Translations under genes and position numbers: made by a program | Virus record (IMG/VR): IMGVR_UViG_3300017971_000004 | Coordinates: 128,001-188,555 of that record | Length of the DNA stretch: 60,555 nt | From: a virus | Taxonomy: Duplodnaviria > Heunggongvirae > Uroviricota > Caudoviricetes | Strand: one strand, 5' to 3' | In this document: in pieces, positions 20,401 through 41,665 of the stretch | Position numbering within the stretch: position 1 is the first letter of the stretch | Layout: each line of letters opens with the position of its first letter | The notes under the pieces: model-generated | What the model was told of the DNA's origin: nothing | The model's input: only the letters and a program-made list of their open reading frames with translations | Databases searched by the model: none

Positions 20401-21021
20401 CTGATCCAAGGTCCAGTTCGGACCCCAGAGCCGGCGCGAGTAGCCGAACTGCGGAATCTGGGTAAACTCGGCCACAGCGGTCTCGAAACCCCGAAATCGT
20501 CCCCCATAGTTGCGGTATGCCAACCGCAGCTCGTGAAGGAGCCACCGATAGTCGTCCAGGGACTGCCCGATATTGTTGTAGGTCTGGATGTCGCGACCAA
20601 AACGACCTTCGATGCCGTTGACGGTGACCGTCTCGATGAAGATGTCGTCGTAGGCTTCCTTCCAGTCGTCGTCGATGCTCTCGAAGGTCTCCGCATAAGC
20701 TATGAGCCACAGGGCGTACTCCCGCACAGTCACGTAGCTGATGAGGGTATTGTTGGTCTCGGAATTGACGAGTCGGATCTCGTTCTCGCCACGATCCAGA
20801 TGGCGACTGAAGACAACATTCCCGTTGATGTCCGACACGACAGAACCAGAATAAACTCCTGCAATATAAAGGATATAAGTGGTATTCGGATTGTCGGTTT
20901 CAAGGCGCACTTCGTGGTTTCCGTGCCGGTACGGAACGACAATGCCGCGCGAATCGTAGAACGGCCCCGGCGGGATGGCCTTGATCAGCTCTGCATAGCG
21001 ATTCACACCTTCGAGGGCCAT
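17431..21021 (-). CDS. Large baseplate wedge/peripheral protein
   Basis: About 1196 aa, beta-rich, downstream of the baseplate J-like gene; TGATG coupling at 21021. Confidence 0.6.
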   Translation of the reverse strand: MALEGVNRYAELIKAIPPGPFYDSRGIVVPYRHGNHEVRLETDNPNTTYILYIAGVYSGSVVSDINGNVVFSRHLDRGENEIRLVNSETNNTLISYVTVREYALWLIAYAETFESIDDDWKEAYDDIFIETVTVNGIEGRFGRDIQTYNNIGQSLDDYRWLLHELRLAYRNYGGRFRGFETAVAEFTQIPQFGYSRRLWGPNWTLDQSMLINARWKERSHVVSYNGAGITGVALDRVEADVPSGVAARVIQYDATLDSLRWGTFLTPGPYVPANDGLLFLPGPPSTVPAFILGLAGPFALAAAETTLYIDDGTGTIIVPLVTGWPTPTAAQVVGDINTAMGYALASVYNGKVLLVNPASQPLLEIEHGANNAAVRIFGVEPGNLTFAPNVMNGVTIVSISGSVDVNANSEIAYRYDGSVTPPTRELRWRSPLAAWSPWVSISGDGTYSLIDGFGYTLKVHCYEDDMDVLSGPWPATTSVLFSVGYGKEARQIEQTGGLWVYVDRTQLPAINTFDFVDVFDDASTPGVAELPDNWWLGLPLPTTSTVILESRVVTDKIDLYDPSPAFRVHLQDSGARVHELFSRVLQYPMPRPGPRGQNYPQQSPGLFYDYEGFKAKFSGWVSSTTVGPTTATLSFSFDNGATWVSSAPFPVVQDTGGFWYEDFTYIEFETIIPAGLTDNGVLVAVTIDDPVGIDVMLDSFRVDVEYITSRVLTSNTVVRTRHRQYFGELAWTWSVDPLSLLEKEYIGLPHKRPDKTVPISGVTVTDISMDTDPGNGTVDYEYNSLGDIHRLRWNAPNAAWGPGLGWVSILSAGAYVLPASDGSSMTTLVDYALLPVLDGTPPGATITRSVTITDTTIRQGHVRRISPAHSSIDIFDVTEYNSDNVPINLKGAVTEGDFSSCTLTNLDIHASSPFRYSYLLPNLLPVEDEPLTFSVAAPYVAPLLYDSDQDQEYAMLFEDGILVPNDQWWFNSASEVQVATAYYNSGATYTISYNPICVIETPLLDLGALTYQDYVWFADYMLWDRMEHNVIGRIVTVPLFFNPDIGRTTLEYRSSMDMAVSKLYIEDADGRREISTANWRFIDPTTVEMDASQFVGGAVYYLEHEEIRMYRQSALTITFEHRSGVDAPSCLAAGWNTIQRNENVDVNQSPAGHLIHQLRLSVSNIRDLSDFKIRSLVLKGLHMFGSNPDIPGLTNV

Positions 21022-22022
21022 CACTTACCTCCTCCGAGACCCTTCTGCTCACCTTGCGGCGTGAAGAGCTGCGCGTCATCGATGATCGAGAACCTCGTAT
21101 CGGCCTGAGCGCTGTTGATCACCTTGAGCGCGTCCAGATAGTAGTACTCGTAGGCATTGCTCTTGGTGTATACCCCATTGCCGACGACATGGACATCCAC
21201 GAGACCTTTATAGGCAGCCGGCTGGCGCTTGTCGTCCATGCTGGGCGTCACTAGACCGCGCATCCGAAAATCCGAGACAACGATGGTATCGTGGACCGGC
21301 TGATTCTGGAAGACCGCGAAGGGCCGATAGTAGAACCACTCGACCCGGACCCCTTGGAGGTTGTAGGTAGTCGTGCCGTTCGTTGTATAGATTCGGAACT
21401 TCGCAGCAGTGCTCGTGAACCGAACGCTCTTGAAAACGCGCTCTCCGTTGGCGTAGAAGTAGACGTCACTGTTCCAGCGCAGGATCTTGAACATCGAGGT
21501 GCCAGTCGTCCACGAGAGAGGCTTGATCATCTCGTCGGCGAGGATGCCGCCCCGGTAGACCTCACAACGCAGCACCAGTGTCCCCGGCTCCGTCCCCACT
21601 TCGATGCGCATCTCGGCGTAATCGTTGACTCCCACCCAGAGTGACAGCGCCATCAACGTGACGACGTCAGCGGGGTATTCTCGAATCACGGGCAGACTGA
21701 ATCTGATCTCGCCTTGCGTAGAACCCCACAACGCAACCGATTCGATTGCAGCAGCCGAGCTGGCGGTCGAGCCCGTCACCATCTCCAGATGGAACGGTCC
21801 GGTGTTGACGGATCCGGAGCCGTAGGAGATGTCGACCCACTTCGACGGATCGAGGACACCTCCGGTGAAAAAGTCATCCCATTGACGCGGATCGAAACCG
21901 GTCCCCTTAAGAATGAAGGGGTTACCTCCCGGCGATGGTCCCCGCTCCGGATCCACCACGTCGAGCATGGTGCTCGGCCCGTAGAGCACTCCGGTCCCGT
22001 ACTTGAACAGCGCGTATCGCAT
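21021..22022 (-). CDS. Baseplate-associated protein with IPT/TIG-like and beta-sandwich (lectin-like) regions
   Basis: VVDPERGPSPGGNPFILKGTGF resembles IPT/TIG; position in the baseplate operon. Confidence 0.55.
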   Translation of the reverse strand: MRYALFKYGTGVLYGPSTMLDVVDPERGPSPGGNPFILKGTGFDPRQWDDFFTGGVLDPSKWVDISYGSGSVNTGPFHLEMVTGSTASSAAAIESVALWGSTQGEIRFSLPVIREYPADVVTLMALSLWVGVNDYAEMRIEVGTEPGTLVLRCEVYRGGILADEMIKPLSWTTGTSMFKILRWNSDVYFYANGERVFKSVRFTSTAAKFRIYTTNGTTTYNLQGVRVEWFYYRPFAVFQNQPVHDTIVVSDFRMRGLVTPSMDDKRQPAAYKGLVDVHVVGNGVYTKSNAYEYYYLDALKVINSAQADTRFSIIDDAQLFTPQGEQKGLGGGK

Positions 22023-28456: not shown

Positions 28457-29206
28457 TTACTCCAAGTCGTTGAAGAACTCCCGGCCTATGGACAGGGAGA
28501 TGTACTTGTAAACATCATCCATCGACGGCATTGAGCTGAGCGCCGTGAAGCTGAACGAATAGCTCTTGTTGAACGGCTCCGTTGCCTCATCAGTGAACTC
28601 CATGACGCGATCGAAGTGTCCGATGAAATCGATGATCGCATTGCCCAGGATCGGGCTGCTGTAGAGGACGTGAAACTGGTTCGGCATCCCGCTGACGGGA
28701 TCGATCATCGGTTCCCGAGTGAGACTGTACAGATTCCAGAAGTTGACCAACTTCGCAGCCCCGGAATAGTTGGCGACATCGAGCCCCTTCTGCTTGGTGA
28801 CCGATTTCGTCCACTCCTGGAACTGCTTGAGCGAATCGGAAAGCCAGTTCGCCTTCTTCGCGCCGCTGCGAAGATTGATGTTTCCGGTCTGACCCGAAAA
28901 CTGGATCTGAATGATGTCGTTGTTACGACCCCGCGCATTCGTCCAGTGGAAGAAGACCGCACCGCTCTGGGTATCTCGCCGTGTGATGCGCTTCTGCTGC
29001 GTGAACGTGACCGACTGCGGGTTCACCTTCATCCGGACTGGCGGAATGTTCTGGGCGGTCCGGAGATCGGATGTGAACATGAACGGCACCCGATACGCGA
29101 TGTCCTCGTAGGGATTGAGGATCCGTTCGAGAATCTTGTCGGTGCTCGGTTTCGGCTGCGTCTCGTCGACGAAAGTGTCCACGAACCATGTTCCGAAATC
29201 AGCCAT
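28457..29206 (-). CDS. Tube-initiator/baseplate tube-like protein (gp48/gp54, CIS-tube-like)
   Basis: MKVNPQSVTFTQQKRITRRDTQSG...IQFSGQTG...FSYSFSF pattern; directly after the tape-measure genes. Confidence 0.65.
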   Translation of the reverse strand: MADFGTWFVDTFVDETQPKPSTDKILERILNPYEDIAYRVPFMFTSDLRTAQNIPPVRMKVNPQSVTFTQQKRITRRDTQSGAVFFHWTNARGRNNDIIQIQFSGQTGNINLRSGAKKANWLSDSLKQFQEWTKSVTKQKGLDVANYSGAAKLVNFWNLYSLTREPMIDPVSGMPNQFHVLYSSPILGNAIIDFIGHFDRVMEFTDEATEPFNKSYSFSFTALSSMPSMDDVYKYISLSIGREFFNDLE

Positions 29207-29209
29207 CTA

Positions 29210-32026
29210 TCACTCCTTCGGTGCCTGGGGTCTACGCGTCACTTTCTCCCCGTACTGCATGACACCGGTCTGACCTGTTGCCGAGGGCACCACGCCGGCT
29301 GACTTGCGTTCGGCGAGAGCCTTTTCGTACTGACGGCGCGTCTGACGATATTGCGGAGCCTCCTTCTCGATGTCCTTGCGGCCCGTAAAGAAGAAGGCCG
29401 TCTTGCCGCGTCCCATCGGAAGCGCCGCCACGATCTGCGATTCTCGCGCGAACGGCGCGAACGCGCCGCCTTGGATTTCAGTCCCGAGCGCCTGATGCGT
29501 GAAGGTGGTAGCACGCCCACCGGTCGGATCCTCGACCTCTCCACGTAGAACGCTCCGTGCGAACTCCACCGTCTGCTCGGTGGGAGGCGTCGGTGTCGCG
29601 AACCTCCGCTTGCCCCCCTGTCGTCCCCACCCGAGGCCTCCCGTAGTGACCTCGTAGAGATCCTTGGTGCCGCGCTGCTTGGCCTGGTTGAGGACAGCAT
29701 GCGCGTGGGCAGCGGCGAGCTTCCGATTCCTACCGGTATAGCCCCCGATCTCCCGCTGGATAACCCGCGCCAAGGCCTCGACATCGAGACCACGATACTC
29801 ACCTTCGCCCATGATCTCGGTCTCGGAAGTCGGCGTGGTGGATCCAAAGATGAAACCGCAGCGCGGGCAGTTCCCCATGATGGAGAGATTGATGTTCCCT
29901 TGCGTATCGACCCCCGTCGCGATTACCGAAACACCGCCGCCGACCCATTCGCCGCCACGACCGCTCCCCGGACCGCGTTGGACCGATTTCACCGGAACGC
30001 TGACATTGACGACGTGCTTGATCCCCGCGCCGCCCTCGGTGAGGGCCGACAACGAGATCGGCGCGAACTGAACGGTCGCCTGCGTGGGCTGCCACATCTC
30101 GCCGACAGCTCCCGGAGCGCCGCCTCCTGCACCGGGCTGCATCGCAGCGGTGGGATCGAAGTTCCAGGCAGCCCTGAGGGACTTGAGGGACGAACCCAGG
30201 ACATCACCGCCCATCTTCCCCATCGCGGCGATCATCTGATCGAAGCCCCGGCTCATCTTTTCCGTATGCGCCGCAGCCTGGACATCGAAGGCGTGCAGGT
30301 TCGCGACAAGCTGCTCGTTCGCCTGGGTACGACCCATGACGGCATTCGCCAGATACGCCGGGAGAGCCCTGAAATAAGCAATGAGCATGGCGAGAGTATT
30401 GCCCACGAGACCCAGCAGCCCCTGGCCGACTTTGCTCAAGCCTTTCAACCATTGGTTCATGAAACGTTCGAACTTGCTCTGCTTCTGAGCTTCTATACCG
30501 AACGATCTTCGAAGGATCTCCATGTCCTCCTTGGCACTCTTCGCGGCCTCGACGACCTTCCCTTCCTTGACATCCTTGCCGATCTTGGCCACGACACGAG
30601 CACCTTCGAACCCGAAGCCCATCTGGGTCTCGATGTAGTAGCGCGCACGGTTTTCATCTGCACCGCCGACCGCTTCCATCGCGATGTCATAGACAGCCTG
30701 CACGGTGCGCACTATCTCGTTGGTATTCTTGCGCTCCAGGACCCGTGCAAAGGCGTCCATCATCCGCTGCCGCCCTTGGAGCCCCCTCCCGTAGCCGAGA
30801 CGCTCGGCCACGATGATCTTCCAGCTATCGGACATCTTTGTGATGCCCGAAGCGATTTGCTGGATACCGAGGGCAGCTTGTCGTCCCGCGAACTGCTTGG
30901 GGACGCCGATGCCGGCAAAGTCCTCTTGGACATGGGCCAGCAGGTTGATGGTGTCGTCGATGTCGTAGCCGAACTGACGCAGCTCCTCCCCGGCGGTCTC
31001 GACATTGCGAACGAACTGGAGCGCGCCGGTCCCGGACTGCTTGCCGACCATGTACATCTGGATCAAGGACTCACGGGCCTCATCGGCATTTTTTCCATAG
31101 TCGGCCATCAAGCCGACCATCCGCTTCGCCGAATCCCCCGCAGGGATCTCGAACATCTTGTCGAGAGCGAAGGTGACCGTCAACGCACTGCTCTGGACGT
31201 TGTTGATCTGGGTATCGACCTTGGCGAGCATCTGGCTCACGCTCAAGCCGCCGTCGACGAACGCCTGCGAGACCGCCTGGACCTCCTGACGGTTGATGCC
31301 CATGAAGCGTTGAAACGTTTCCTGAATGCCGGCGATGTGCCGCGTGCCGGACTGAACCGCGCCTCGGACGCCATCGTCGTAGGCCGCGATCAAGATGTTC
31401 TTCACTTCGCCGGTCTCGGCCCGGATACGGTCCTTTTCGAGATAGCCGTAGGCCATGATCTCGATTGCACCGGACAAGATGTTGCCGGGAGTCGGGATCT
31501 TCAAGGTGGACAGCATCCCCCGAACGCGAGACTTGAGCGTGTTGATCTCGGAGACGATGATCTTCGAGATGCGGTCCGGAACCCCCGGAACCGTTCCGCG
31601 CTTGCGCTCGGCGCGCTGGTCGGCATCCCGTTCGCCTTTCCCCTTGCCGACCTTGGATGCGATGTCCTCCCCCTCACGAACGAGATTGGCGGCTTCGTTC
31701 GAGAGATTCTCGAAGTTCTTCTCAGCCTTCTGAACGGTCTGGTCGAAAGTCTCGAAGGACTTCTCCATGCTGCCGGAAATGGCATCATAAGTGGACGAAA
31801 CCTGCTGGGCGTAACGCTTGCTGATCCCGAGCAGCTTGGCCGTCTCTTCGAACTCAGGGTTCTCGGTCAGATCGGACAGTGCCGTGTTGAACCCGAACCT
31901 GAGCTGATCCTCGGTCTTCTTGAAAAGGTCTTCATTCTGCCGGGCCAGATCGCGGACGGCGGCTCCCAGCTCGGTGAACTTGTACCGAACACTATCGAGC
32001 TGAGCAGTATCGGCAACATCCGCCAT
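29210..32026 (-). CDS. Tape-measure-like protein 3 with C-terminal SleB-like cell-wall hydrolase domain
   Basis: Helical N-terminal approx 620 aa homologous to the two upstream paralogs; C-term LARVIQREIGG...AVLNQ...ARSVLRGEVEDPTGGRATTF resembles Hydrolase_2/SleB. Confidence 0.8.
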   Translation of the reverse strand: MADVADTAQLDSVRYKFTELGAAVRDLARQNEDLFKKTEDQLRFGFNTALSDLTENPEFEETAKLLGISKRYAQQVSSTYDAISGSMEKSFETFDQTVQKAEKNFENLSNEAANLVREGEDIASKVGKGKGERDADQRAERKRGTVPGVPDRISKIIVSEINTLKSRVRGMLSTLKIPTPGNILSGAIEIMAYGYLEKDRIRAETGEVKNILIAAYDDGVRGAVQSGTRHIAGIQETFQRFMGINRQEVQAVSQAFVDGGLSVSQMLAKVDTQINNVQSSALTVTFALDKMFEIPAGDSAKRMVGLMADYGKNADEARESLIQMYMVGKQSGTGALQFVRNVETAGEELRQFGYDIDDTINLLAHVQEDFAGIGVPKQFAGRQAALGIQQIASGITKMSDSWKIIVAERLGYGRGLQGRQRMMDAFARVLERKNTNEIVRTVQAVYDIAMEAVGGADENRARYYIETQMGFGFEGARVVAKIGKDVKEGKVVEAAKSAKEDMEILRRSFGIEAQKQSKFERFMNQWLKGLSKVGQGLLGLVGNTLAMLIAYFRALPAYLANAVMGRTQANEQLVANLHAFDVQAAAHTEKMSRGFDQMIAAMGKMGGDVLGSSLKSLRAAWNFDPTAAMQPGAGGGAPGAVGEMWQPTQATVQFAPISLSALTEGGAGIKHVVNVSVPVKSVQRGPGSGRGGEWVGGGVSVIATGVDTQGNINLSIMGNCPRCGFIFGSTTPTSETEIMGEGEYRGLDVEALARVIQREIGGYTGRNRKLAAAHAHAVLNQAKQRGTKDLYEVTTGGLGWGRQGGKRRFATPTPPTEQTVEFARSVLRGEVEDPTGGRATTFTHQALGTEIQGGAFAPFARESQIVAALPMGRGKTAFFFTGRKDIEKEAPQYRQTRRQYEKALAERKSAGVVPSATGQTGVMQYGEKVTRRPQAPKE

Positions 32027-34437
32027 TAGAAGATATTCTCCGCAGCCGCCTTGTCGGCCTTGTTCACCGCGTCAGTACTACGCGGAATTTTGGGCTTTCC
32101 CACTTCAATCGGGAGCGCCCCATAGTCCCGATCCGCAGCTCGACGAAGAGTTCCTTCAGACGGGCTCCAACGTTCTCCGGTCTGGGGGTTCTCCATGATG
32201 CCCGTCACCGGATCGAGTTCCCAACCTTGGTTGACTTTGCGGCGCATCTCCGCGACTTTGCCCGGATTTTTCTTGGCCCACTCGGTCTGACCACCGATGT
32301 CAGCATCGGAAGTAGCCTGAAGCATCGCACCCGTGAACTCGTCCTGGTAGGGCAACTTCACGCCGACCAACGGAGCTTCCCACAAGGGGGTGTCGTGCAG
32401 CATGCTGCCGAAGGTGGTCTCCTCGATCTCCTTGTCGAGATAAAGCTTGTTGAAGCGTTCTCCGAGCTGCCGATATTCCTCACGCCGCGCCCAGGCCTCC
32501 TCCAGCTCCGTCACCGCAGCCGTCCACGGAGCAGCTCTCTTCGGAACCTTCACAGGGCCGGAAATAGCATCGATCAACGGCTGGATGGTCTCGGCGAATT
32601 CGGAGCCAAGTGCCTTGGACACGAGGTTGATTCCCTCCTCGCCCTTCTTCCAGTGGTCGGAGATTTCAGCAATGCGCTGCCGTTGCTCGGCCACGATGTT
32701 ACCGACCACCCGGTCGAGCTGTCGATTCTGCCAAGCCCAATGGAGCGCCGGCAAGCTTCGAACACCGATCACGAGAATGCCGAAAATGTCAGCAACAATG
32801 GCCGTGAGAGCTTCCCCGAGCATGGCCATGCCCCGTACTAGCTCGCGGCGCGTCCGATGCAGGCTCGAAACCTGAGAGGCCTCGACCTTGAAAGCACGTT
32901 TGAGGTTGGAACGTTCCTCCTTGGTAAGATCCTTGAGCTTCCCCCCTTTGGCGATGAGATCGCCCGCGTCGTACAAGAGCGCCGCAGTCCGATTGCGGAC
33001 ACCCAGGTTCTGCTGGATGGTACGGATCATCCGGGAGCGACCCCCGAGACCGGTCTCGCGCATGACCTCGATGTAGGAGCGAATCAAGTTCTCCAGGTAT
33101 TGGTCCTCCTCACCTCCGGCGATGCGCCGCAGACCGTCCTGGAACTGGATCAGGAGCGAATAGGCGTCCGTCTCCTCGTCGTTGTACATCCTCCTGGCCA
33201 AGACGACCTTCATCCCGCTGTCGAGGTTGGAGAAGGCTGACATGAGGTCCTGGACGACGCCCACAGCCTGCTGACCGGCATAGCGCTGATTGAGCCCCAT
33301 GCTCTCGTAGAATCCGATGACGTCCTCCATCAGGACGGCCACGTTCTCAGCGTTGATCCCGAACCGGCTCAAGCTGTCCTGACTGGACTTGACCGCCCGG
33401 ATGAAGTTCATCGTCCCCATTCCGCTGCGTTGACCGGCCATCGACATCTTGAAGAAGAAGTCAGTCGCCCCGCGAAGCTCCATCCCGTACTCGCGCACGA
33501 AGCTCACGATCTCCTCCATGCTGGTACCGGTGGCGAAGTTGAAGTGCCGATCCAGCGCAATGGAAGCGACCACGACATTGCGGCCAGCCGACTTGAGACC
33601 CCGGTCATAGGTCTCGATCAAGTCTGCACTCTTGAAACCGTTATCGATCATCTCGGCAACGGTCTTCTGTACCTCTTGCCGAGCGATGCCGTAGTGCCAT
33701 TGAGCGCGCTCGGCCCAGTTGCCCATCCAACGGACCGCCTTGCGCGTTTCCGTCGAGAAGATCGAGTCGAGACCCGCCGCGAACACGTTGGACATCTCCC
33801 CCATCTCGGCCCGACGACGGTTGCGCTCCTGGTAACCCAGGATGATGGTGCCGATGAGACCGGAGACGAAACCACCGACAATGCCGCCAGGAATCTGGGA
33901 GATGAGATCCTTGATGGCCCCCTTGGCCGATCTGACCTCGCGTTCCACAAACCGTCGCCACATGGAAATGCGCTTGATGGATTTGTCTTCGGCCTCTTCT
34001 GTCTCGTCGAACGAATCTTCCGCCTTCCGAAGAGCCTGATCGGCCTTGTTCGCAGCGAAAGTGACCTCCACGACCGGAATATCGACAGGAGGCGGTTCGA
34101 ACTCGGAGCGCGGAACCCTGATGTCACTGCCGAGCTTGATCGACCCGAGTTTCTCGAAGGTGTCTGAAATGGCGCGATCCTGACGTTCCCACTGCCGCAG
34201 GTAGTTTTCCATCGAGATGTAATCAGCCTCCGGATACAACGTGGAGGCAGTCTGCATGAGCGGCTTCAACGGCAACGAGACATCTGCCGCCTCGTCGAGT
34301 AGATGCGTTATATCCCGCTCCACGGCGGCGGCAACCGAGCGAACGGCGACACCGAAGTTGGTATATGCCCGAGAGGCGTTCTCGGTGCTCCGGTCCAAAG
34401 TCGCGACGTCAATCGCTATTTTCAGATCGCCATCCAT
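32026..34437 (-). CDS. Tape-measure-like protein 2
   Basis: 803 aa, helical; shares SRAYTxFG, SGLIGxxILGYxERxRxRAExGE and AGQRS motifs with TMP1. Confidence 0.8.
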   Translation of the reverse strand: MDGDLKIAIDVATLDRSTENASRAYTNFGVAVRSVAAAVERDITHLLDEAADVSLPLKPLMQTASTLYPEADYISMENYLRQWERQDRAISDTFEKLGSIKLGSDIRVPRSEFEPPPVDIPVVEVTFAANKADQALRKAEDSFDETEEAEDKSIKRISMWRRFVEREVRSAKGAIKDLISQIPGGIVGGFVSGLIGTIILGYQERNRRRAEMGEMSNVFAAGLDSIFSTETRKAVRWMGNWAERAQWHYGIARQEVQKTVAEMIDNGFKSADLIETYDRGLKSAGRNVVVASIALDRHFNFATGTSMEEIVSFVREYGMELRGATDFFFKMSMAGQRSGMGTMNFIRAVKSSQDSLSRFGINAENVAVLMEDVIGFYESMGLNQRYAGQQAVGVVQDLMSAFSNLDSGMKVVLARRMYNDEETDAYSLLIQFQDGLRRIAGGEEDQYLENLIRSYIEVMRETGLGGRSRMIRTIQQNLGVRNRTAALLYDAGDLIAKGGKLKDLTKEERSNLKRAFKVEASQVSSLHRTRRELVRGMAMLGEALTAIVADIFGILVIGVRSLPALHWAWQNRQLDRVVGNIVAEQRQRIAEISDHWKKGEEGINLVSKALGSEFAETIQPLIDAISGPVKVPKRAAPWTAAVTELEEAWARREEYRQLGERFNKLYLDKEIEETTFGSMLHDTPLWEAPLVGVKLPYQDEFTGAMLQATSDADIGGQTEWAKKNPGKVAEMRRKVNQGWELDPVTGIMENPQTGERWSPSEGTLRRAADRDYGALPIEVGKPKIPRSTDAVNKADKAAAENIF

Positions 34438-36737
34438 CAGGGATCCGCACCCATCGTATTGCCGCTGGATGTCAGCACATGCTCGGCTTGGTAAATCCTC
34501 GTCTCCGTCAGCTGTTGCTGGGTGATCTTCTGCTGTGTCGTCGGGACAATGCCGGTCCCCCTGCCAGTCGAAGGCGGAGGGGGAGGAGTCGCCTGCACGC
34601 TCGTGCTGACGCTCCCCATCTGTGCTTGACCGGAGCGCAGGACATTCTTGGTACCACTGGGAGCCTCACCGGTCAGAACGGCCCTCTGGCCCGGCTGAAG
34701 GCCGACAGGGCTAGGTCGCGGAGCTGCCATCCCGCGCCGAACCGCCTTGGTGCCCCCTTGTTGCTGTCCCAGCAGCTCCCGAGCCTTCCGCTCGACGGCT
34801 ACACCCCAGTCGACCTGCGGAGTCTCGAACTTCTCGCTCAACGCGGCCTCGATGGGATCGATCAGCGATTTGAACTCTCCACCGAGCGCATCCTTGAGAA
34901 GTCCCCCTCCGGTCATGACGTCCTTGGCCCCGGCGCTCATGTGGGCGAACAGCATCGACTGCCGGGCTCCAGCCTCCGCGATGGCGGAAGCCGCCTTGTT
35001 GACATCCTTGTCCAGAGCTGCCTGGATCACCTGCGGGATAGTCTTGAGACCGACCGCCAGCACCCCCAGGATGCCCACGAGGATCTTGAGCAGACCGCGT
35101 CCGATGTGCCCGATGGCCTCGCGCAGGCGTTTCTGCGTCTTCTCCAAGGACGAAACACGCTGGCCTTCCGTCTTGAAAGCGTCCGACAGGCGCTTCATCT
35201 CATCGTTGGTGAGGGCCTGGAGACTGTTCTGCTCCTTGATCTTGCCGCCGAGATCGTGAAGGGTCGCAGCGGTTCGATTGTCGAGGCCCTGCATCTCCAT
35301 GACCTTGATCGCCTCGGCGCGCCCCCGACCCCCTTCGGTAGCCCACTGCTGAAGCTCCGTGGTCGCACGGAGCATGAAGTTGTTGTCCTCTCCCTTCCCT
35401 GCCCGTAGGAAGCCGTCCTCCCACTTCTGAAGGGCGTCGAGGGCGCTCAGCTCCGGGAACATCCTCTGGGCGAGAACGGCCTTCATGCCGGGGCTGAGGC
35501 TCGCCAGACCGCGTGTGAGACCTCCCACCACCCTCGCAGCCTGATCGCCGGCATACTGCGGACTCAGACCCATGTCCTGGTAGTGGCGTTGGATCTTGCC
35601 CATCACATCGGCCACGTCTTCAACATCTACACCGTATTGCTGCATCGCGGACGCCCCCGAGAGGACCGCGTTCGTGAACTTTTCGATCCCCATCGCGCTG
35701 CGCTGCCCCGCAAAGGCGATCCGAACGTACTTATCAGTGGCGACGTCGAGCGAGTCACCCAGCTCGGTCGTGATCTGAATGATGCCCTGCATCGAGGTGC
35801 CGGTGGCCTGATTGAAGTGCTTGTCGACCGCGATGGAAGCGATGGTGACGTTGTCGCCCACGCGGCCCAGGTCCTTGTCGAAAGCGGTCATGATCTCCTT
35901 GGACCTGTAGCCGGCATCGACCATCATTTTGAGAACGCCCTGGGTCTCCTTCCTGCCGACCCCGAAGTACCACTGGGCTCTCTCCTGGAAGTTGGCGAAA
36001 TAACGGGTAGCTCTCCGCGCTTCGCCACCGAAGAGGGCTTCTCCTGTCGCCTCGAAGACGTTTCGAACTTCGCCGGCCTCGGCCCGGAGACGATCTCGTT
36101 CCGTGTAGCCGAGGATCATCGCCCCGATGAGACCGGAGATGACGCCACCGCTCAGAACGCCTCCCGGAACGTGAGAAAGAAGACCTCGAATCGCGCCCTT
36201 GGCGGAACTGATCTCGGCCTTGATGTAGGCCGTGATGGCGTCGGTCTGCTTCTTGGACGCCTCATCCGCCTCCTTCATACGCTTTTCAACGTCCTTCGAC
36301 TGTTTCTCCGAAGTTTCGGAAGTCTCCTTGGCCACGTCAGCCGTGGCGACCGCTGCTTCCGCCTCCGCAGCCGCCTTCGATTGGCCAGGAGGAGCGCCAC
36401 CTTCGTTGACGAGAGCGCCCAGGCGCATCCCCGAGAGCCGGGTCATGTCGTTGGCGATCTTGTCCCCGTGGCGAGCAATGTCATCCATCCCCCGAACAGT
36501 ATGGCCAAGCTGAATCCGGGCCGACTGGAAGGAACGGTTGATCTGCGGAGTCAACGTGGCCACCGAGGACGAGACGACACCCGCCTCCCGTTGGAGGGCC
36601 GACAGATCGTTGGAAACCGAGTTGACGACCTCCCTTACCGAGGAACCGAAGTCGGTGTAGGCCCGGCTGACGCGATCGGCCTCTCCTTCGAACTCGGAGA
36701 AATCGAACTTCAGCAGGTATTCCTTGGGATCGGTCAT
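34437..36737 (-). CDS. Tape-measure-like protein 1
   Basis: 766 aa, Ala/Gly-rich and helical, directly downstream of the G/GT chaperone pair. Confidence 0.82.
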   Translation of the reverse strand: MTDPKEYLLKFDFSEFEGEADRVSRAYTDFGSSVREVVNSVSNDLSALQREAGVVSSSVATLTPQINRSFQSARIQLGHTVRGMDDIARHGDKIANDMTRLSGMRLGALVNEGGAPPGQSKAAAEAEAAVATADVAKETSETSEKQSKDVEKRMKEADEASKKQTDAITAYIKAEISSAKGAIRGLLSHVPGGVLSGGVISGLIGAMILGYTERDRLRAEAGEVRNVFEATGEALFGGEARRATRYFANFQERAQWYFGVGRKETQGVLKMMVDAGYRSKEIMTAFDKDLGRVGDNVTIASIAVDKHFNQATGTSMQGIIQITTELGDSLDVATDKYVRIAFAGQRSAMGIEKFTNAVLSGASAMQQYGVDVEDVADVMGKIQRHYQDMGLSPQYAGDQAARVVGGLTRGLASLSPGMKAVLAQRMFPELSALDALQKWEDGFLRAGKGEDNNFMLRATTELQQWATEGGRGRAEAIKVMEMQGLDNRTAATLHDLGGKIKEQNSLQALTNDEMKRLSDAFKTEGQRVSSLEKTQKRLREAIGHIGRGLLKILVGILGVLAVGLKTIPQVIQAALDKDVNKAASAIAEAGARQSMLFAHMSAGAKDVMTGGGLLKDALGGEFKSLIDPIEAALSEKFETPQVDWGVAVERKARELLGQQQGGTKAVRRGMAAPRPSPVGLQPGQRAVLTGEAPSGTKNVLRSGQAQMGSVSTSVQATPPPPPSTGRGTGIVPTTQQKITQQQLTETRIYQAEHVLTSSGNTMGADP

Positions 36738-37570
36738 TCGCTGGTTTCCACCGTGATTCTGCTACGTTCCGGCTTCTCCGGAATGCCTCCCAGGATCGAA
36801 TCCGATTCGATCCTGACCGGAATCAACTTGCCGTCCTGCTGGCGCTCCCGCTGAAGCTCCTGAATGAGATCACGCCGAGCTTGACCGAGGGTCCGCGCCG
36901 GCTGTTGGTCCAGGGAACCCTCGTCGATATCATCCTTGTTGAGCACGAGGTTCTCCAGGTACAGCTGCGTCTCCTTGGAACCCCAGTCGAGAAATTTGCG
37001 CACTTCTTCGGGCGTATTCTCGAACTCGACATCGCTGTCGCTTTTCATGAACTCGTCCAGCTCTTCGGGCGTCATCTCCACGAAGTCTCCCTCGGTCGGG
37101 TACGTCGGGACTATGCCGGCCTCCTCCAGCTCCAGCTTGCGGCGCTCGCGCTCCTGAGTAGCGAATTCGTCGCGTTTTTCGAGAACCATCTGAACGAACT
37201 CGTCGCGTCCGATGGCCAAGGCCAACGGAACACACTCCTCGACTTCAGGCGCACGCAGAAGACCCGTCTCTTCATCCTCGACCGGCATCAGGTTCAACCC
37301 CAACATGTTGAGCAGCTCCGTTCGGACCACCTTGGCGATTTCATTCGCCCGCTCGAATTTCTCTTCGTCCTCCAGGTTCATCGATTCCAGCTCGAAGACC
37401 CATTGAGTGTCATTCGATCCTTTCAAACGAGGATCGCCGACCGGGATACGCCTCCGGGCCAGGATCTTGGCCTTGATTTGCAGCCTCGATGTTATTCGTC
37501 TCCAGACGGGGAAGATTCGGTCCCAGAGGGCTTCGTGCCCTCTCCCGAATTCTCCCCGAAGGATTTTTTT
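36734..37570 (-). CDS. Tail assembly chaperone, -1 frameshift extension (gpT part of gpGT)
   Basis: -1 frame of the chaperone from the A7 run reads KKILRGEFGRGHEALWDRIFPVWRR...; its stop overlaps the TMP1 start (ATGA); no good independent start. Confidence 0.8.
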   Translation of the reverse strand, partial: KKILRGEFGRGHEALWDRIFPVWRRITSRLQIKAKILARRRIPVGDPRLKGSNDTQWVFELESMNLEDEEKFERANEIAKVVRTELLNMLGLNLMPVEDEETGLLRAPEVEECVPLALAIGRDEFVQMVLEKRDEFATQERERRKLELEEAGIVPTYPTEGDFVEMTPEELDEFMKSDSDVEFENTPEEVRKFLDWGSKETQLYLENLVLNKDDIDEGSLDQQPARTLGQARRDLIQELQRERQQDGKLIPVRIESDSILGGIPEKPERSRITVETSE

Positions 37571-38025
37571 ATCGAGGCCTGCGCCCCTTCTCTCCTTTCT
37601 TCGAGCTTCTGCCATTCCTCCCACAGCGGTTCCAAGACCTCCGGGAATCGGCTCGACAAGAACTCCATAAGGTGCTCGGCGGCGAAGTACTTCTGCGAGA
37701 ACTTGCCGCGTCCTTCCATCGTTTCGAGCGCCTTGCGCAGCTCCTCGGTAGTCGACCACTGCTCCTTGAAGAACTCGAAGATGGGGACGCCGTCGATGGC
37801 GCGGATGCCGATGGCCAGTGTCGGCAGCCTCCACGACGTGATGGCCGACAGCCGCGTCCCCATGTTGACGAACCCGTTGCGCCAGTTGCTTTCCTCCTCA
37901 TTGAGCAGCCGCATCGTCCACTTGTGGTTGTGAACCATGCAGGTATGCTCCAGGGTCTCGCCGTCTAGTTCCCTGGCAAGATCCATGAGGATCATTTTTG
38001 GATTCTGGACTTCTTCCTCGGACAT
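37492..38025 (-). CDS. Tail assembly chaperone (gpG-like)
   Basis: Between tube and tape-measure genes; start reassigned to ATG 38025 (MSEEEVQ); slippery site near its 3' end. Confidence 0.82.
   Translation of the reverse strand: MSEEEVQNPKMILMDLARELDGETLEHTCMVHNHKWTMRLLNEEESNWRNGFVNMGTRLSAITSWRLPTLAIGIRAIDGVPIFEFFKEQWSTTEELRKALETMEGRGKFSQKYFAAEHLMEFLSSRFPEVLEPLWEEWQKLEERREGAQASIKKSFGENSGEGTKPSGTESSPSGDE
37507..37570 (-). promoter_or_regulatory. Programmed -1 ribosomal frameshift signal
   Basis: A AAA AAA heptamer (37570-37564), 5-nt spacer UCCUU, then a long stem-loop CGGGGAGAAUUCGG...CCGAAUCUUCCCCG enclosing AGAGGGC-ACGAA-GCCCUCU. Confidence 0.85.
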
Positions 38026-38080
38026 GGTGGCTTTCGCTCCTCTCTCCCGCATCAGCGGGGTATGGTGCCTACGGCACCGC

Positions 38081-38689
38081 TTACGAAATCATTCGTACTT
38101 TGGTATAGTTCAACGTGGCGTGCACCATCACGATTCGATCACCTTGCGCCTGGAGATTCCGACCCAGCTGGCTGAACCAGCACCCGGAATACCAGAACTT
38201 CTCGACGTAGTACTCGGCACCCACCTGAACGTCCTCCAGATCATCCTTGACCCCAGCGGCGCTCAAGATGGCTCCCGTGGCCTGTTCGACCTTCTTGTTG
38301 AGCTTCTTGCCGAACGAGAAAGGATCTCCCGCCTTCTTGTCGAGCCACGGGATGGAAGGATCCTTGTCGCTCTTGAAGCGAATCCACTTCTCCTCGATGT
38401 CGATGGGATTGTGTTGGTCCGTCAACATCCAAAACGGTTTCGGCGTCCCCCACACCTCCTCCATCTTGTTGGTGAAAAGATCGTACCGGCCAATCTGAAT
38501 CGTCAGGCCCGTCGCGATGCCGGGAACGTTTTCGAAAGGCTCCCCGGTGCCGACAGCGCTGATCTCGTAGAACGGTTGCACCGCCCGCGCCTGATTGGGA
38601 GCCCACGATTGGATGTGACCGATTATCTGGTTCCCGGCCTTGATCGAGATCGCATGAGAGGTACGGATCTGCGTGGCGGGTACGGGCAT
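38081..38689 (-). CDS. Tail tube protein paralog 2 (with approx 54-aa insertion)
   Basis: Collinear with the 148-aa tube (IQSWAPNQ, YDLF, LTDQ, EEKW, CWFSQLGRNLQAQGDRIVMV); extra segment between EEKW and EKF. Confidence 0.85.
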   Translation of the reverse strand: MPVPATQIRTSHAISIKAGNQIIGHIQSWAPNQARAVQPFYEISAVGTGEPFENVPGIATGLTIQIGRYDLFTNKMEEVWGTPKPFWMLTDQHNPIDIEEKWIRFKSDKDPSIPWLDKKAGDPFSFGKKLNKKVEQATGAILSAAGVKDDLEDVQVGAEYYVEKFWYSGCWFSQLGRNLQAQGDRIVMVHATLNYTKVRMIS

Positions 38690-38702
38690 CTCATCTCACG
38701 GC

Positions 38703-39149
38703 TTAAACGGGCCGCACACGAGCGTAGTTCAACGTCGCGTTGACCATCACGATCCGGTCGCCCTGCGCCTGGAGGTTGCGCCCCAGCTGGCTGAACCAGC
38801 AGTCGAAGTAGATGAACTTCTCGCTAGTGCCGTCCGGGTTGCTCCACTTCTCCTCGACCTCGATCTTGTTGTTCTGGTCGGTGAGCATCCAGAGCGCTTT
38901 CGGGGTACCCCAGACCTGCTCCATCTTCGACGCGAACAGGTCATAGCGGGATACCTGGATGGTGAGGCCGGTGACGTTGCCGGGCACGTTCTCGATGACC
39001 TCCCCGGAGGTCTCCGCCCGAAGCTCGTAGGCTGGCGTGACGGTCCGAGACTGGTTCGGTGCCCAGGTCTGGATCTGGCCGATGGTAGTACCGGCGGCGC
39101 GGAGAGATACCGCGTGGCTACTACGAATCGTCGTGTTCGGAACTGGCAT
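38703..39149 (-). CDS. Tail tube protein
   Basis: 148 aa directly after the sheath gene; T4 gp19-like size and pattern. Confidence 0.88.
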   Translation of the reverse strand: MPVPNTTIRSSHAVSLRAAGTTIGQIQTWAPNQSRTVTPAYELRAETSGEVIENVPGNVTGLTIQVSRYDLFASKMEQVWGTPKALWMLTDQNNKIEVEEKWSNPDGTSEKFIYFDCWFSQLGRNLQAQGDRIVMVNATLNYARVRPV

Positions 39150-39169: not shown

Positions 39170-41665
39170 TTACGCCGGGGCGAAGAAGGGGTTATCCACG
39201 CTGTACTCGCCGAAGAACCGCTTCGCCGGGTACTTCAGGTTGAACCAGTACTTGAAATAGAAGGTGCGAGGATCGGTGCTCGACTGGTACACCTGGATGT
39301 CGCTCGAAGCGTCGATGTCCCTCGGGAAGCCGGCCTCGTCGCGGTACGGCGCGATGGTGCCGGCGTTGATCTGGGCGAGCAGCCCGATCATGATCCACTT
39401 CTTGACGTCCGAGATGAAGTCCGCCAGATCATCCGGTACGACGCCGACGAGGTTGGTCGACACCAAGTTGTCGATGGTGTCGGTGACGGCGTCCTTCTGG
39501 GCGCTCGCGGACGGCTCCTCGAACTGGACGACCTTGCCGCCCCCGGCCTCGGTGGTCAACGGATCGAGCAGCACGAAGCGACCCGCGTCCAAGGTCACAA
39601 CCGTGACGCCCTTGTCGGCCATCGCATGCCGCTCGCCGCGCAGGTACGTCCCGAAGCCCTCCTCGTTGAAACCCTTGACGAACTTGCCGATCAGAGCGCT
39701 GGACGGGCTCGGGAGGGCCGTGAACGCAGCGCAGACGGCGGTCGCGAGGTAGGTACCGTCGAGTTCGAGCGTGATCTCCTGCTGGGTATCCAGCGTGATG
39801 GTGCGCTCGACATCGCCCGGCGCGCAGAGAACGTGACGACCACGACCCGGCGACGTGTTCCCCGGCTGGAGAACCTGCGTCGACCGGTAGATGAACGTGT
39901 CCGGTGTGTCCGGATCGCCAGGATCGGTATCACGGGCCATCCCGTACCAGCCGCGCCGATAATGCTTCTCCAGCATGGACGACTGCTCGGAAACGTGCTG
40001 CATCGTGTAGACCGCCGTCGCCCGAGCGGTGTCGAGCACCACGATCTCGGTGATGCCCTTCTTCTCCTCGCAGACGTCGATGGCGGCGTTGATCTGGTTC
40101 TGGGTCGGGATGCCCGGCGTGGTCGAGTCGTTGATCTGGACGAGCCAGACGCTGTTCGCCTCGTTCTCGAAGGCGACCTCGCCCGCAATGCACAGCTTGT
40201 TGCGCAGGTAGTTGTCGAGGGTCAACGGAGACGTGTACTCGTAGAGCTGGTCCGGATCGAACACGCGGTGCGCCGTCTCGTAGTCGGTGGAGGGCCGCGT
40301 GTAGTCGTAGGTCGCGAAATATTCCGCGCCGAACTCGGGCCGCAGCCCGACGCCGTAGACCTCGTAGGGCAGCGTGATCGTGCCGAAGAGGGTGGCGAAG
40401 GAGTTGTCGGACGTATCCAAGAACTCGATGGACGAGGACGCTCCCTTCGGCTGCGGGAAGTTCTCGAAAGGATCGGGAACGTCGAGCTTGATCGCTCCGA
40501 AGCCGTCATCGGAAGCGACGTGCGCGTAGGCCGGACCGTAGTAGGTCGATGCGTTCAGAGCCGTGTTGATGTCAGCGGCGATCTGGGTCGCGGTGCGCCC
40601 GACGCCTGCGGTCAGCGTGATGGTGATCGGAGTGCCGCTGTTGATGGAAAGGTAGAGCTTGTCGTTCGTCGCTGCGGTGATGTTGTAGGGACCGGTGAGA
40701 CCGGTGATCGTCGAATTGGCCCAGACGGTGCTGGTCCAGTCGAGGGTGTTACCCGTCTCCTGGTAGTCGGTGTTCTTCGTGAACGAGGTGCCGCCGGGGT
40801 AGGTCCCGACGTTGACGATCTTGTCGAGCGGCGTGGTCGCCGTGGCGCTGGCCAGAACATCGGTCAGGATGTCGATGGCAATGTAGTCGAGGGTGTAGGT
40901 CGCGGTCGAGATATAGCTCTCGTCCTTGATCTGGATCCAGGTCGAGGCCTGGATGCCTGCCGTCGCGGTCGGAACCCACGCGGCGTTTGAAATCTCCGAC
41001 GCGCCGTCGTTGGTGGTCGCCAAGGACAGGAACACCTTGACATCCGAGGCCGGAGTCGTGCTCGGCGACGCGATCGTGATGATCTCGTTCACGGCCCCCG
41101 TCGCATGGGTCGCCACGCCGGCATAATCCGCACCGTAATCCGAATAGTACGTACCGGCGGCGTTGCCCAGCTCGTAGTTGATGGCGTCGCAGATATCGGT
41201 GGCCGTGGCCGCAGCCGGAGCGCCACCGACCGCCGTCACCGCTGCGTTCATGTCGAGGGTGACCACGCGCTTGCCGTCGAGGGAGATGGTGAAGTACTGC
41301 GCCGTTCCGGTACCACTGGAAACATCGATGGTCGCGCCCGCCCACTCGTTCCCTACGAGATAGGCCGACAGGAACCACCAGTCTCCCAGACCCAGCTCAT
41401 TGCCGTTCAGGTACAGCTTGGCCTCGTTGCGGTCCCGATTCGACACGTTCACCAGCTGGGCCGTGTGAGGAGTCGAGGCGGCAACGGTGAGCGTCTCCTC
41501 GTATACCTTCCCGCGAGTGATGGGTTCATCGACTTCGCGACGAGTCCGAGGCGCGATCCCGACGATGCACATGACGCGTTCTGAAGAAACAGAAACCGCT
41601 CCAGGAGCGATCACTTCTTGGATATACACGCCCGGATCGACGTATTTCGAAATCGAGATGGCCAT
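39170..41665 (-). CDS. Contractile tail sheath protein
   Basis: YVDPGVYIQEV N-terminus; C-term ADKGVTVV...DPLTTE, DPRTFYFKYWFNLKYPAKRFFGEY. Confidence 0.92.
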   Translation of the reverse strand: MAISISKYVDPGVYIQEVIAPGAVSVSSERVMCIVGIAPRTRREVDEPITRGKVYEETLTVAASTPHTAQLVNVSNRDRNEAKLYLNGNELGLGDWWFLSAYLVGNEWAGATIDVSSGTGTAQYFTISLDGKRVVTLDMNAAVTAVGGAPAAATATDICDAINYELGNAAGTYYSDYGADYAGVATHATGAVNEIITIASPSTTPASDVKVFLSLATTNDGASEISNAAWVPTATAGIQASTWIQIKDESYISTATYTLDYIAIDILTDVLASATATTPLDKIVNVGTYPGGTSFTKNTDYQETGNTLDWTSTVWANSTITGLTGPYNITAATNDKLYLSINSGTPITITLTAGVGRTATQIAADINTALNASTYYGPAYAHVASDDGFGAIKLDVPDPFENFPQPKGASSSIEFLDTSDNSFATLFGTITLPYEVYGVGLRPEFGAEYFATYDYTRPSTDYETAHRVFDPDQLYEYTSPLTLDNYLRNKLCIAGEVAFENEANSVWLVQINDSTTPGIPTQNQINAAIDVCEEKKGITEIVVLDTARATAVYTMQHVSEQSSMLEKHYRRGWYGMARDTDPGDPDTPDTFIYRSTQVLQPGNTSPGRGRHVLCAPGDVERTITLDTQQEITLELDGTYLATAVCAAFTALPSPSSALIGKFVKGFNEEGFGTYLRGERHAMADKGVTVVTLDAGRFVLLDPLTTEAGGGKVVQFEEPSASAQKDAVTDTIDNLVSTNLVGVVPDDLADFISDVKKWIMIGLLAQINAGTIAPYRDEAGFPRDIDASSDIQVYQSSTDPRTFYFKYWFNLKYPAKRFFGEYSVDNPFFAPA

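What the first reader, a model, noticed from the sequence alone, without database searches (positions are those of the whole stretch)
29210..36737. Three tandem, mutually homologous tape-measure genes
Seen: three coupled ORFs (766, 803, 938 aa) after the G/GT chaperone share collinear motifs: SRAYTDFG / SRAYTNFG / YKFTELG; ILGYTERDRLRAEAGE / ILGYQERNRRRAEMGE / AYGYLEKDRIRAETGE; AGQRSAMG / AGQRSGMG / VGKQSGTG; FKTEGQRVS / FKVEASQVS / FGIEAQKQS. Their C-termini diverge and only the third carries an enzyme domain. Established: tailed phages normally encode one tape-measure protein that assembles as a homo-oligomer. Inference: (a) an obligate heterotrimeric tape measure with division of labour, (b) subunits joined in series for a very long tail, or (c) alternative tail lengths. 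At the usual approx 0.15 nm per residue, about 110 nm (parallel) versus over 300 nm (series) would distinguish these.
Basis: partly seen in the sequence, partly recalled or inferred. Interest (0 to 1): 0.8.

Follow-up and report, generated by a model that had tools for sequence, protein, structure and literature searches.

The report
Three paralogous tape-measure genes in tandem
An uncultivated 188-kb contractile-tailed phage, like most of its relatives, carries three old, mutually related copies of the tail "ruler" (tape measure) gene where phages normally have one, which most likely means the ruler and injection bundle inside its tail is built from different subunits, though this is not proven.

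Summary
Three translationally coupled minus-strand genes (766, 803 and 938 aa) are true paralogs (BLASTP E 2e-115, 4e-48, 9e-39). They lie between a G/GT chaperone pair with an in-frame A_AAA_AAA slip site and the tube-initiator gene.

They are tape measure proteins by position, by helical and hydrophobic make-up, and by fold. The predicted structure of the third matches about 97 viral tape-measure models. Pfam hits stay below threshold. Only the third carries an enzyme, a SleB-like cell-wall hydrolase.

- The family has at least 410 clusters, all metagenomic.
- A-B-C triplets with one-to-one orthologs occur in six lineages sampled as DNA.
- Other lineages carry a doublet (A-like plus C).
- A separate lineage has an independently derived triplet, split by the initiator gene.
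- The outgroup Rctr197k has a single 669-aa gene.

All copies keep the same ruler length of about 600 to 620 aa.

My best reading (about 0.5) is a mixed tape-measure bundle with chains in parallel and divided labour. End-to-end stacking and alternative tails are less likely. Nothing here tests binding.

This scan already found the same triplet in a relative (e1-1611144). A preprint notes two tape-measure-like genes in Staphylococcus jumbo phages.

The parts
39170..41665 (-). Tail sheath-like protein (831 aa)
   Evidence: tblastn: 40% identity to Rctr197k_065, and 23% identity (E 3e-5) to the annotated tail sheath gp178 of Bacillus phage G. No Pfam or PHROG hit.
38703..39149 (-). Tail tube-like protein (148 aa)
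   Evidence: phrog_985 virion structural protein, E 4.5e-6. Lies directly after the sheath gene.
38081..38689 (-). Second tube-like paralog (202 aa)
   Evidence: phrog_985, E 9e-6 over residues 6-77.
37492..38052 (-). Tape-measure chaperone G (186 aa)
   Evidence: Position. Overlaps the T frame and contains the slippery heptamer.
37564..37570 (-). Slippery heptamer A_AAA_AAA for a -1 frameshift (G to GT)
   Evidence: Read in the zero frame as ATA AAA AAA TCC. The -1 frame is the open T frame.
36734..37570 (-). T-frame extension of the GT fusion chaperone; its stop overlaps the start of gene A (ATGA)
   Evidence: ORF 36734-37834 in the -1 frame.
34437..36737 (-). Tape measure paralog A (766 aa, P0001)
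   Evidence: Hydrophobic stretches at residues 186-210 and 549-567. Orthologs at 38-53% identity in five sampled lineages.
32026..34437 (-). Tape measure paralog B (803 aa, P0002)
   Evidence: phrog_167 tape measure, E 0.0095. Orthologs at 31-40% identity. B clade support 99/99.
29210..32026 (-). Tape measure paralog C (938 aa, P0003), with C-terminal enzyme
   Evidence: AF2 model pLDDT 77. BFVD and Swiss-Prot fold matches to tape measure proteins. PF10145 E 0.0057, below threshold.
29297..29794 (-). SleB-like cell-wall hydrolase domain of C (about residues 745-910), preceded by a small CPRC beta element (about residues 698-725)
   Evidence: Foldseek PDB 4f55 and 4fet (SleB catalytic domain), probability 0.99, TM by target 0.65-0.69. 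PF07486 hits in 8 of 51 C-type homologs, but not in P0003 itself.
28457..29206 (-). Tail tube initiator-like protein (249 aa)
   Evidence: PF23980, E 2.5e-5 (24.5 bits against a cut-off of 27). phrog_1011. Orthologs in all related loci.

Best explanation
The three genes encode three specialised subunits of one tape-measure complex. After translationally coupled synthesis, and coating by the single G/GT chaperone, A, B and C most likely co-assemble side by side and in register into the bundle that fills the tail-tube lumen. That bundle is a trimer in solved tails, so probably one chain of each. It sets a tail of roughly 90-115 nm, the same as the single-copy ancestor. On infection the bundle is ejected. 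C brings a SleB-like cell-wall hydrolase. A and B carry two hydrophobic stretches and a shared C-terminal end motif, and would supply membrane-insertion or channel functions. Shown: paralogy, tape-measure identity, conservation of copy number, equal ruler lengths, the enzyme on C only, and independent origin of a second triplet. Inferred: co-assembly, stoichiometry, and the roles of A and B.
For: (1) Tape-measure identity. The genes fill the slot between the G/GT chaperone with a canonical slip site and the tube initiator and baseplate genes. The AF2 model of C is all-helical with long terminal helices. It matches 97 BFVD entries at E<=1e-3, nearly all named tape measure or minor tail protein, plus B. 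subtilis YqbO (E 3.5e-5) and FluMu gp42.
(2) All three are kept. One-to-one A, B and C orthologs occur in window, L004/L007, L008/L009, L010, L011 and L012. The two closest relatives have the same gene layout. dN/dS is 0.06 for A and 0.08 for C in one close pair.
(3) Three copies were reached twice. A second lineage (L015, L019, L021, L022) has three copies split by the initiator gene. AU tests reject positional orthology (C+III_3 p 9e-4; A+III_1 p 1e-10). A 172-sequence tree makes the second triplet monophyletic.
(4) Ruler length is preserved. Segment lengths across the core (A residues 175-568) are almost identical in all paralogs and genomes. Start-to-landmark lengths are 619, 611 and 603 aa in the window. 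The single-copy outgroup gene has 669 aa and is homologous (hhalign probability 98.5%, E 1.7e-15). Duplication therefore did not lengthen each chain or split it.
(5) The genes are coupled by 1- or 4-nt overlaps, which fits matched expression.
(6) Labour is divided. Among 51 C-type homologs, Pfam finds five different wall-hydrolase families (M15_2 in 12, M15_3 in 8, Hydrolase_2 in 8, M23 in 4, CHAP in 1). Pfam finds no enzyme domain in the seven A-type and six B-type proteins scanned. A and B types share a C-terminal end motif that C lacks.
(7) From established knowledge: tape measures are trimers in solved tails, and a duplicated homomer subunit co-assembles with its copy by default.
Against: No direct evidence of co-assembly or of presence in virions. 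All family members are metagenomic, so no EM, proteome or mutant exists. Doublet lineages (L013 and the P0104 contig) and a single-copy outgroup show that three different chains are not required by the architecture. The N-terminal helical part varies between paralogs of one genome (147/141/142 residues in the window, but 162 against 126 in L013), so perfect register along the whole length is not enforced. The strict length conservation of the core is also explained by AF2 predicting it as a compact helical domain, which weakens it as evidence for register. The two tree methods disagree on the deeper branching. The AU-test groups were defined after seeing a tree.
Confidence: 0.5

Rival explanations
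1. One ruler plus passengers. Only one paralog (most likely C, which carries the enzyme as classical tape measures do) binds the hub and sets tail length. A and B are tape-measure-derived ejection or channel proteins that ride in the tube lumen, or elsewhere in the virion, without determining length.
For: Only C-type proteins carry the wall hydrolases typical of tape measures. A and B share a distinct C-terminal end motif and an extra Gly-rich hydrophobic stretch. The C clade is the most sharply separated (100/100).
Against: A and B keep the full N-terminal motif, the core and the same ruler length as C and as the single-copy outgroup, which passengers would not need. In the second triplet lineage all three copies derive from one non-C ancestor. 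The tube lumen has little room for anything other than chains packed alongside the ruler, which in practice is the mixed bundle.
Confidence: 0.2
2. Alternative or redundant homotrimers. Each virion uses one paralog as a homotrimer, giving sub-populations of tails with different ejection payloads (bet-hedging over hosts or cell states), or the copies back each other up.
For: The paralogs have the same ruler length, so any one could build the same tail. C-terminal ends differ. Copy number varies between lineages: 1, 2 or 3.
Against: Simple redundancy does not explain retention of one-to-one orthologs at 24-35% paralog identity, with dN/dS below 0.1, across deep lineages. Coupled translation from one operon gives all three at once in the same cell. 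Sorting freshly made homologous chains into pure homotrimers would need an exclusion mechanism.
Confidence: 0.13
3. Series arrangement. Homotrimers of A, B and C stack end to end and measure a tail of roughly 350 nm or more.
For: Summed length is 2,507 aa. The sheath shows remote similarity to that of the very long-tailed Bacillus phage G (23% identity).
Against: All three share the same N-terminal motif and architecture, with no complementary head and tail ends. The outgroup with a related sheath and initiator has one 669-aa gene, so each duplication would have had to add about 100 nm of tail at once, and this would have happened independently in two lineages. Known long tails use one long tape measure (PMC2147016, PMC4919401). 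In the second lineage the initiator gene sits between copies.
Confidence: 0.07

Closest known systems
Canonical single tape measure proteins of the TP901-1 / PhageMin_Tail type with a wall hydrolase (for example B. subtilis skin-element YqbO, Mu and FluMu gp42, P1 Sit, T5 pb2, TM4 Tmp)
   Same: Gene position after the G/GT chaperone. Long helical protein with hydrophobic stretches. Same predicted fold. A peptidoglycan hydrolase fused to the C-terminal part of paralog C (P1 Sit and T5 pb2 as described in PMC9024508).
   Different: Here the slot holds three diverged paralogs (two in some relatives) and not one gene. Two of them lack any enzyme. Sequence similarity to curated tape-measure families is below threshold.
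Paired tape-measure-like genes of Staphylococcus jumbo phages (MarsHill, Madawaska, Machias, DC4): 'tape measure protein' plus 'tail lysin'
   Same: Two adjacent large helical, transmembrane-segment-bearing tape-measure-like genes, at least one carrying wall-degrading domains. They are noted in print as 'two potential tape measure proteins' (bioRxiv 10.1101/2020.12.14.422802; PMC10638138).
   Different: Unrelated lineage. About 1,960-1,990 aa each, two copies and not three. No mechanism proposed. I did not compare the sequences here.
Virus Rctr197k (KX853510) gene Rctr197k_071
   Same: Nearest deposited relative. Homologous core (hhalign probability 98.5%). Same neighbours: sheath at 40% identity and an orthologous tube initiator.
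   Different: A single copy of 669 aa, annotated only as a misc_feature 'similar to hypothetical protein'.
Paralog-derived hetero-oligomers in phage virions (the (gp6)2-gp7-type wedge heterotrimer; the T1 cement heterotrimer gp48:(gp49)2)
   Same: Precedent that duplicated virion subunits co-assemble into mixed trimers, including 2:1 forms that would correspond to the doublet lineages (PMC10966104, PMC11945409).
   Different: Different proteins and locations. No such case is documented for a tape measure in the papers I could search.

Membership tests
Phage tail tape measure protein (functional class) | Gene lies between the tail assembly chaperone pair (G/GT with a programmed -1 frameshift) and the tube-initiator, hub and baseplate genes | tested here: met
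   Order is sheath, tube, tube-like, G/GT (A_AAA_AAA at 37570-37564), A, B, C, PF23980-like initiator, then baseplate genes including phrog_6 wedge and phrog_4540 hub.
Phage tail tape measure protein (functional class) | Long, mostly alpha-helical protein with hydrophobic or transmembrane-like stretches | tested here: met
   The AF2 model of C is helical from residue 7 to 621. Hydrophobic stretches: A 186-210 and 549-567, B 178-200 and 533-569, C 533-563.
Phage tail tape measure protein (functional class) | Fold or sequence likeness to recognised tape measure proteins | tested here: met
   BFVD: 97 matches at E<=1e-3, almost all named tape measure or minor tail protein. Swiss-Prot models: YqbO E 3.5e-5, FluMu gp42 probability 0.92. 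TM-scores are low (0.2-0.35), as expected for flexible helical models.
Pfam PF10145 PhageMin_Tail / PF20155 TMP_3 / phrog_167 | Score above the family's curated threshold | tested here: not met
   PF10145 scores 17 bits against a cut-off of 33.2 on C. phrog_167 has E 0.0095 on B. TMP_3 best E is 9e-4, in 4 of 20 family members. I therefore do not file these genes as members of those curated families, only as remote relatives.
Phage tail tape measure protein (functional class) | Protein length sets tail length; chains sit in the tube lumen as a trimer | not testable with these tools
   No cultured member, EM or virion proteome. INPHARED holds only the metagenomic Rctr197k.
SleB/CwlJ-type cell wall hydrolase (Pfam PF07486 Hydrolase_2), C-terminal domain of C | Fold of the SleB catalytic domain | tested here: met
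   Foldseek against 4f55 and 4fet: probability 0.99, TM by target 0.65-0.69, rmsd 3.5-3.9 over 146 columns. Domain pLDDT is above 90.
SleB/CwlJ-type cell wall hydrolase (Pfam PF07486 Hydrolase_2), C-terminal domain of C | Pfam profile match above threshold, and catalytic residue present | tested here: inconclusive
   P0003 itself gives no Pfam hit, even as an isolated domain. 8 of 51 C-type homologs do (best E 1.2e-8). The L011 ortholog scores 32.2 bits against a cut-off of 27. I did not check the catalytic residue.
Hetero-oligomeric (mixed-subunit) tape measure, the proposed kind | The paralogs physically co-assemble | tested here: inconclusive
   The only available test, a complex prediction of the three N-terminal regions, returned no verdict. 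All other support is comparative.

The most novel reading that the evidence does not exclude
The tail lumen of this whole clade of roughly 150-210-kb phages holds an obligate mixed tape-measure trimer: one chain each of A, B and C, or 2:1 in the two-gene lineages. A three-subunit ruler evolved at least twice independently from a homotrimer. This breaks the three-fold symmetry of the tail axis and lets each chain specialise (wall digestion, membrane insertion, hub or terminator contact).
Probability: 0.35. Interest if true: 0.75.

Novelty: new variant of a known kind. Interest (0 to 1): 0.62.

Why it matters
The tape measure is the textbook case of a protein ruler, and in every solved tail it is a homo-oligomer of one gene product. 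A large, environmentally widespread phage clade in which the ruler gene is stably doubled or tripled would be a natural experiment on how a symmetric homomer becomes an asymmetric heteromer. That the tripling happened twice independently strengthens the case. It would also show how the ejected tape measure divides the tasks of wall digestion and channel formation. In practice, it shows that automated annotation will mislabel or leave unnamed two of the three genes. It also shows that tail length cannot be predicted by summing the tape-measure-like genes.

Tried and rejected
- **Complex prediction.** I ran the N-terminal regions (A 1-180, B 1-172, C 1-165). The result was no verdict (median score 0.00, one run 0.42, folds uncertain). 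It is not evidence either way.
- **INPHARED phages.** tblastn and megablast of A, C and the whole region found no match. A type III paralog hit only Rctr197k.
- **Profile against PDB sequences.** Only designed coiled coils and helical bundles matched, which is uninformative.
- **Foldseek PDB for the helical part.** No match at E<=1e-3.
- **Wider survey of loci.** Alignments A2 and A3 were too diverse for the search for related loci. Single-protein queries gave one new locus. The metagenome scan returned only duplicates of L006 and L008.
- **DNA of the two closest relatives.** P0004 and P0005 were not retrievable, so dN/dS for B could not be estimated. L008 and L009 are identical in B. The sheath value in that script is an alignment artefact and is disregarded.
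- **Length covariation.** I looked for covariation of the N-terminal region between paralogs across genomes. No clear correlation appeared with seven genomes.
- **Sequencing runs.** Two DNA holders were found (sediment and seawater metagenomes, possibly the source). No RNA holder is listed.
- **Literature.** Searches for heterotrimeric or multiple tape measures found nothing beyond the Staphylococcus jumbo-phage remark. Other 'heterotrimer' hits concern wedges or cement proteins.
- **0305phi8-36.** I recalled this phage as possibly multi-tape-measure. The paper describes one long tape measure and a two-gene chaperone, so I rejected it as a precedent.
Full report
**1. The observation**

The window is bases 128001-188555 of a 188,555-bp IMG/VR virus record with direct terminal repeats, rated complete.

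On the minus strand lie three consecutive ORFs:
- A, 34437-36737, 766 aa
- B, 32026-34437, 803 aa
- C, 29210-32026, 938 aa

BLASTP confirms paralogy:
- A-B: 35% identity, E 2e-115
- A-C: 27% identity, E 4e-48
- B-C: 24% identity, E 9e-39

The genome contains no further copy.

The junctions are ATGA (GT/A), TGATG (A/B) and TAATG (B/C).

Upstream, the 186-aa G frame carries A_AAA_AAA at 37570-37564 in the zero frame. The -1 frame there is the open T frame that ends at 36734. This is a canonical G/GT chaperone.

**2. What the genes are**

The gene order is:
- sheath-like gene (remote match to the phage G sheath)
- two tube-like genes (phrog_985)
- G/GT
- A, B, C
- tube-initiator-like gene (PF23980, just below the cut-off)
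- baseplate genes, including a phrog_6 wedge subunit and a hub/lysozyme-like protein

Curated profiles give only sub-threshold tape-measure hits.

I folded C with a 51-sequence alignment (AF2, pLDDT 77). The model has five parts:
- long N-terminal helices, residues 7-126
- a confident compact all-helical domain, residues 180-490
- two long helices, residues 518-621, which include the hydrophobic stretch
- a small CPRC beta element
- a confident alpha/beta domain, residues 745-910

Fold searches gave these matches:
- BFVD: 97 matches at E<=1e-3, almost all named tape measure or minor tail protein.
- Swiss-Prot models: the top match is YqbO of the B. subtilis skin element, and FluMu gp42 is also found.
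- PDB: the C-terminal domain matches the SleB catalytic domain, with probability 0.99 and TM 0.65-0.69.

C-type homologs carry interchangeable wall hydrolases. Of 51 scanned, Pfam finds M15_2 in 12, M15_3 in 8, Hydrolase_2 in 8, M23 in 4 and CHAP in 1. A further family member that my A/B/C profiles could not class (P0135) carries a glucosaminidase domain. A fused wall hydrolase is a hallmark of tape measures.

In the seven A-type and six B-type proteins scanned, Pfam finds no enzyme domain. A and B have two hydrophobic stretches each, and C has one.

**3. Distribution and history**

A profile of 20 family members found 410 cluster representatives at E<=1e-3, of which 210 score E<=1e-30. All are 640-1,045 aa, and none has a name. 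No cultured phage in INPHARED has the family. The only deposited relative is the metagenomic Virus Rctr197k.

| Layout | Gene order | Where seen |
|---|---|---|
| I | A-B-C-initiator, one-to-one orthologs | window, L004/L007, L008/L009, L010, L011, L012; by gene layout also the two closest relatives |
| II | A-like-C-initiator | L013 and the P0104 contig |
| III | T1-initiator-T2-T3 | L015, L019, L021, L022; partial L017; a remnant in a bacterial-looking contig, L020 |
| Single | one homologous 669-aa gene before the initiator | Rctr197k (hhalign probability 98.5%) |

The trees give this picture:
- In an IQ-TREE analysis, C (100/100) and B (99/99) are clades, and A+B join.
- The type III copies fall outside A, B and C.
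- AU tests reject C+III_3 (p 9e-4) and A+III_1 (p 1e-10). I named these groups after seeing a tree, which is a caveat.
- A 172-sequence FastTree makes all type III copies one clade (support 1.0). That clade is sister to the A/B-like clade, and C is separate.
- The two methods differ on deep branching, but both say the type III triplet arose independently of A/B/C.

Clade sizes in that tree suggest that doublets are at least as common as triplets: C 54, A 23, 43 A-like sequences that branch next to A (among them the doublet-lineage proteins P0104 and L013_A), B 17, and type III 31.

In one close pair, L008 against L009, dN/dS is 0.06 for A and 0.08 for C.

**4. Length analysis**

Between conserved landmarks the segment lengths are nearly invariant in every paralog and genome. 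From A residue 175 to 568 they are 34-36, 16, 50, 74, 47, 93-100, 34-36, 22 and 22 residues.

Start-to-landmark 'ruler' lengths are 619, 611 and 603 aa in the window, and 589-645 aa in the other loci. The tails after that point differ by class: A 125-175 aa, B 157-270 aa, C 303-382 aa.

At 0.15 nm per residue, which is the established rule of thumb, the predicted tail lengths are:
- about 90-93 nm for the shared ruler
- 115-141 nm for the full lengths
- about 376 nm if the three were summed in series
- about 100 nm for the single-copy outgroup

**5. Mechanism**

The most economical reading is that duplication of a homotrimeric tape measure produced chains that still co-assemble in parallel and then specialised. 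C kept or swaps the wall hydrolase. A and B kept an extra hydrophobic stretch and a shared C-terminal end motif.

The supporting points are:
- retention of one-to-one orthologs
- a convergent second triplet
- unchanged ruler length relative to the outgroup
- coupled translation

The weaknesses are:
- There is no physical evidence.
- Two-copy and one-copy relatives exist.
- N-terminal lengths are unequal in some genomes.
- Core length conservation is equally explained by a folded domain.

I put the mixed parallel bundle at about 0.5, one ruler plus passengers at 0.2, alternative or redundant homotrimers at 0.13, and the series arrangement at 0.07.

**6. Comparison and novelty**

I found no paper describing a hetero-oligomeric tape measure. 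Two tape-measure-like genes are remarked on, without interpretation, in Staphylococcus jumbo phages.

This scan had already reported the same triplet in a relative. Finding e1-1611144 has genes of 788, 764 and 911 aa, which correspond to my L008/L009. The scan had also reported tape-measure pairs in other phage lineages.

I class the finding as a new variant of a known kind, of moderate to high interest. The mechanism is unproven.

Noticed in passing
L015:4856-13243, L019:2451-10970, L021:3601-11877, L022:9992-17783: A separate lineage has three tape-measure paralogs with the tube-initiator ortholog inserted between the first and second copy. This differs from the window's A-B-C-initiator order, and the three copies form their own clade.
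   Followed up: yes
L020:5849-10920: An initiator-like gene plus two tape-measure paralogs (792 and 639 aa) sit alone in a 93-kb contig. They are flanked by ATP synthase, ECF sigma factor, FHA and cytochrome genes. This looks like a prophage remnant or a domesticated fragment in a bacterial chromosome.
   Followed up: no
L008 vs L009, 10001-20774: Two near-identical relatives are 100% identical in B, the initiator and the 852-aa baseplate gene, but only 97.6% identical in A and C. This suggests recent recombination within the tail module.
   Followed up: partly
window 38081-39149 (-): Two adjacent tube-like genes (148 and 202 aa) both hit phrog_985, so the tube protein may also be duplicated, as discussed for P1 Tub and BplB in PMC9024508.
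   Followed up: no
window 17547-17629 (+): ARAGORN calls a tRNA-Gln (CTG) on the plus strand, inside the 3' part of a 1,197-aa minus-strand ORF (17431-21024). Either the tRNA or the ORF end may be spurious.
   Followed up: no
window 15682-16554 (-): A 290-aa protein with HNH / endonuclease VII and Lar-like matches (phrog_1035 E 2e-23) sits among the tail and baseplate genes. It is probably a homing endonuclease. Rctr197k also has a homing endonuclease next to its sheath gene.
   Followed up: no
L014:20064-22073 (KX853510 78062-80071): The single tape-measure homolog of Virus Rctr197k is deposited only as a misc_feature 'similar to hypothetical protein', although the frame is open for 669 codons from a GTG.
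   Followed up: partly
C-terminal 20-30 residues of A-type and B-type proteins (P0001, P0008, P0009, P0034, P0038, P0040, P0053 and others): Many A-type and B-type proteins end in a loosely conserved strand-like hydrophobic run with Pro, Ser or Gly, followed by an amphipathic helix. C-type ends are charged and variable. This may be a hub- or terminator-docking motif.
   Followed up: partly
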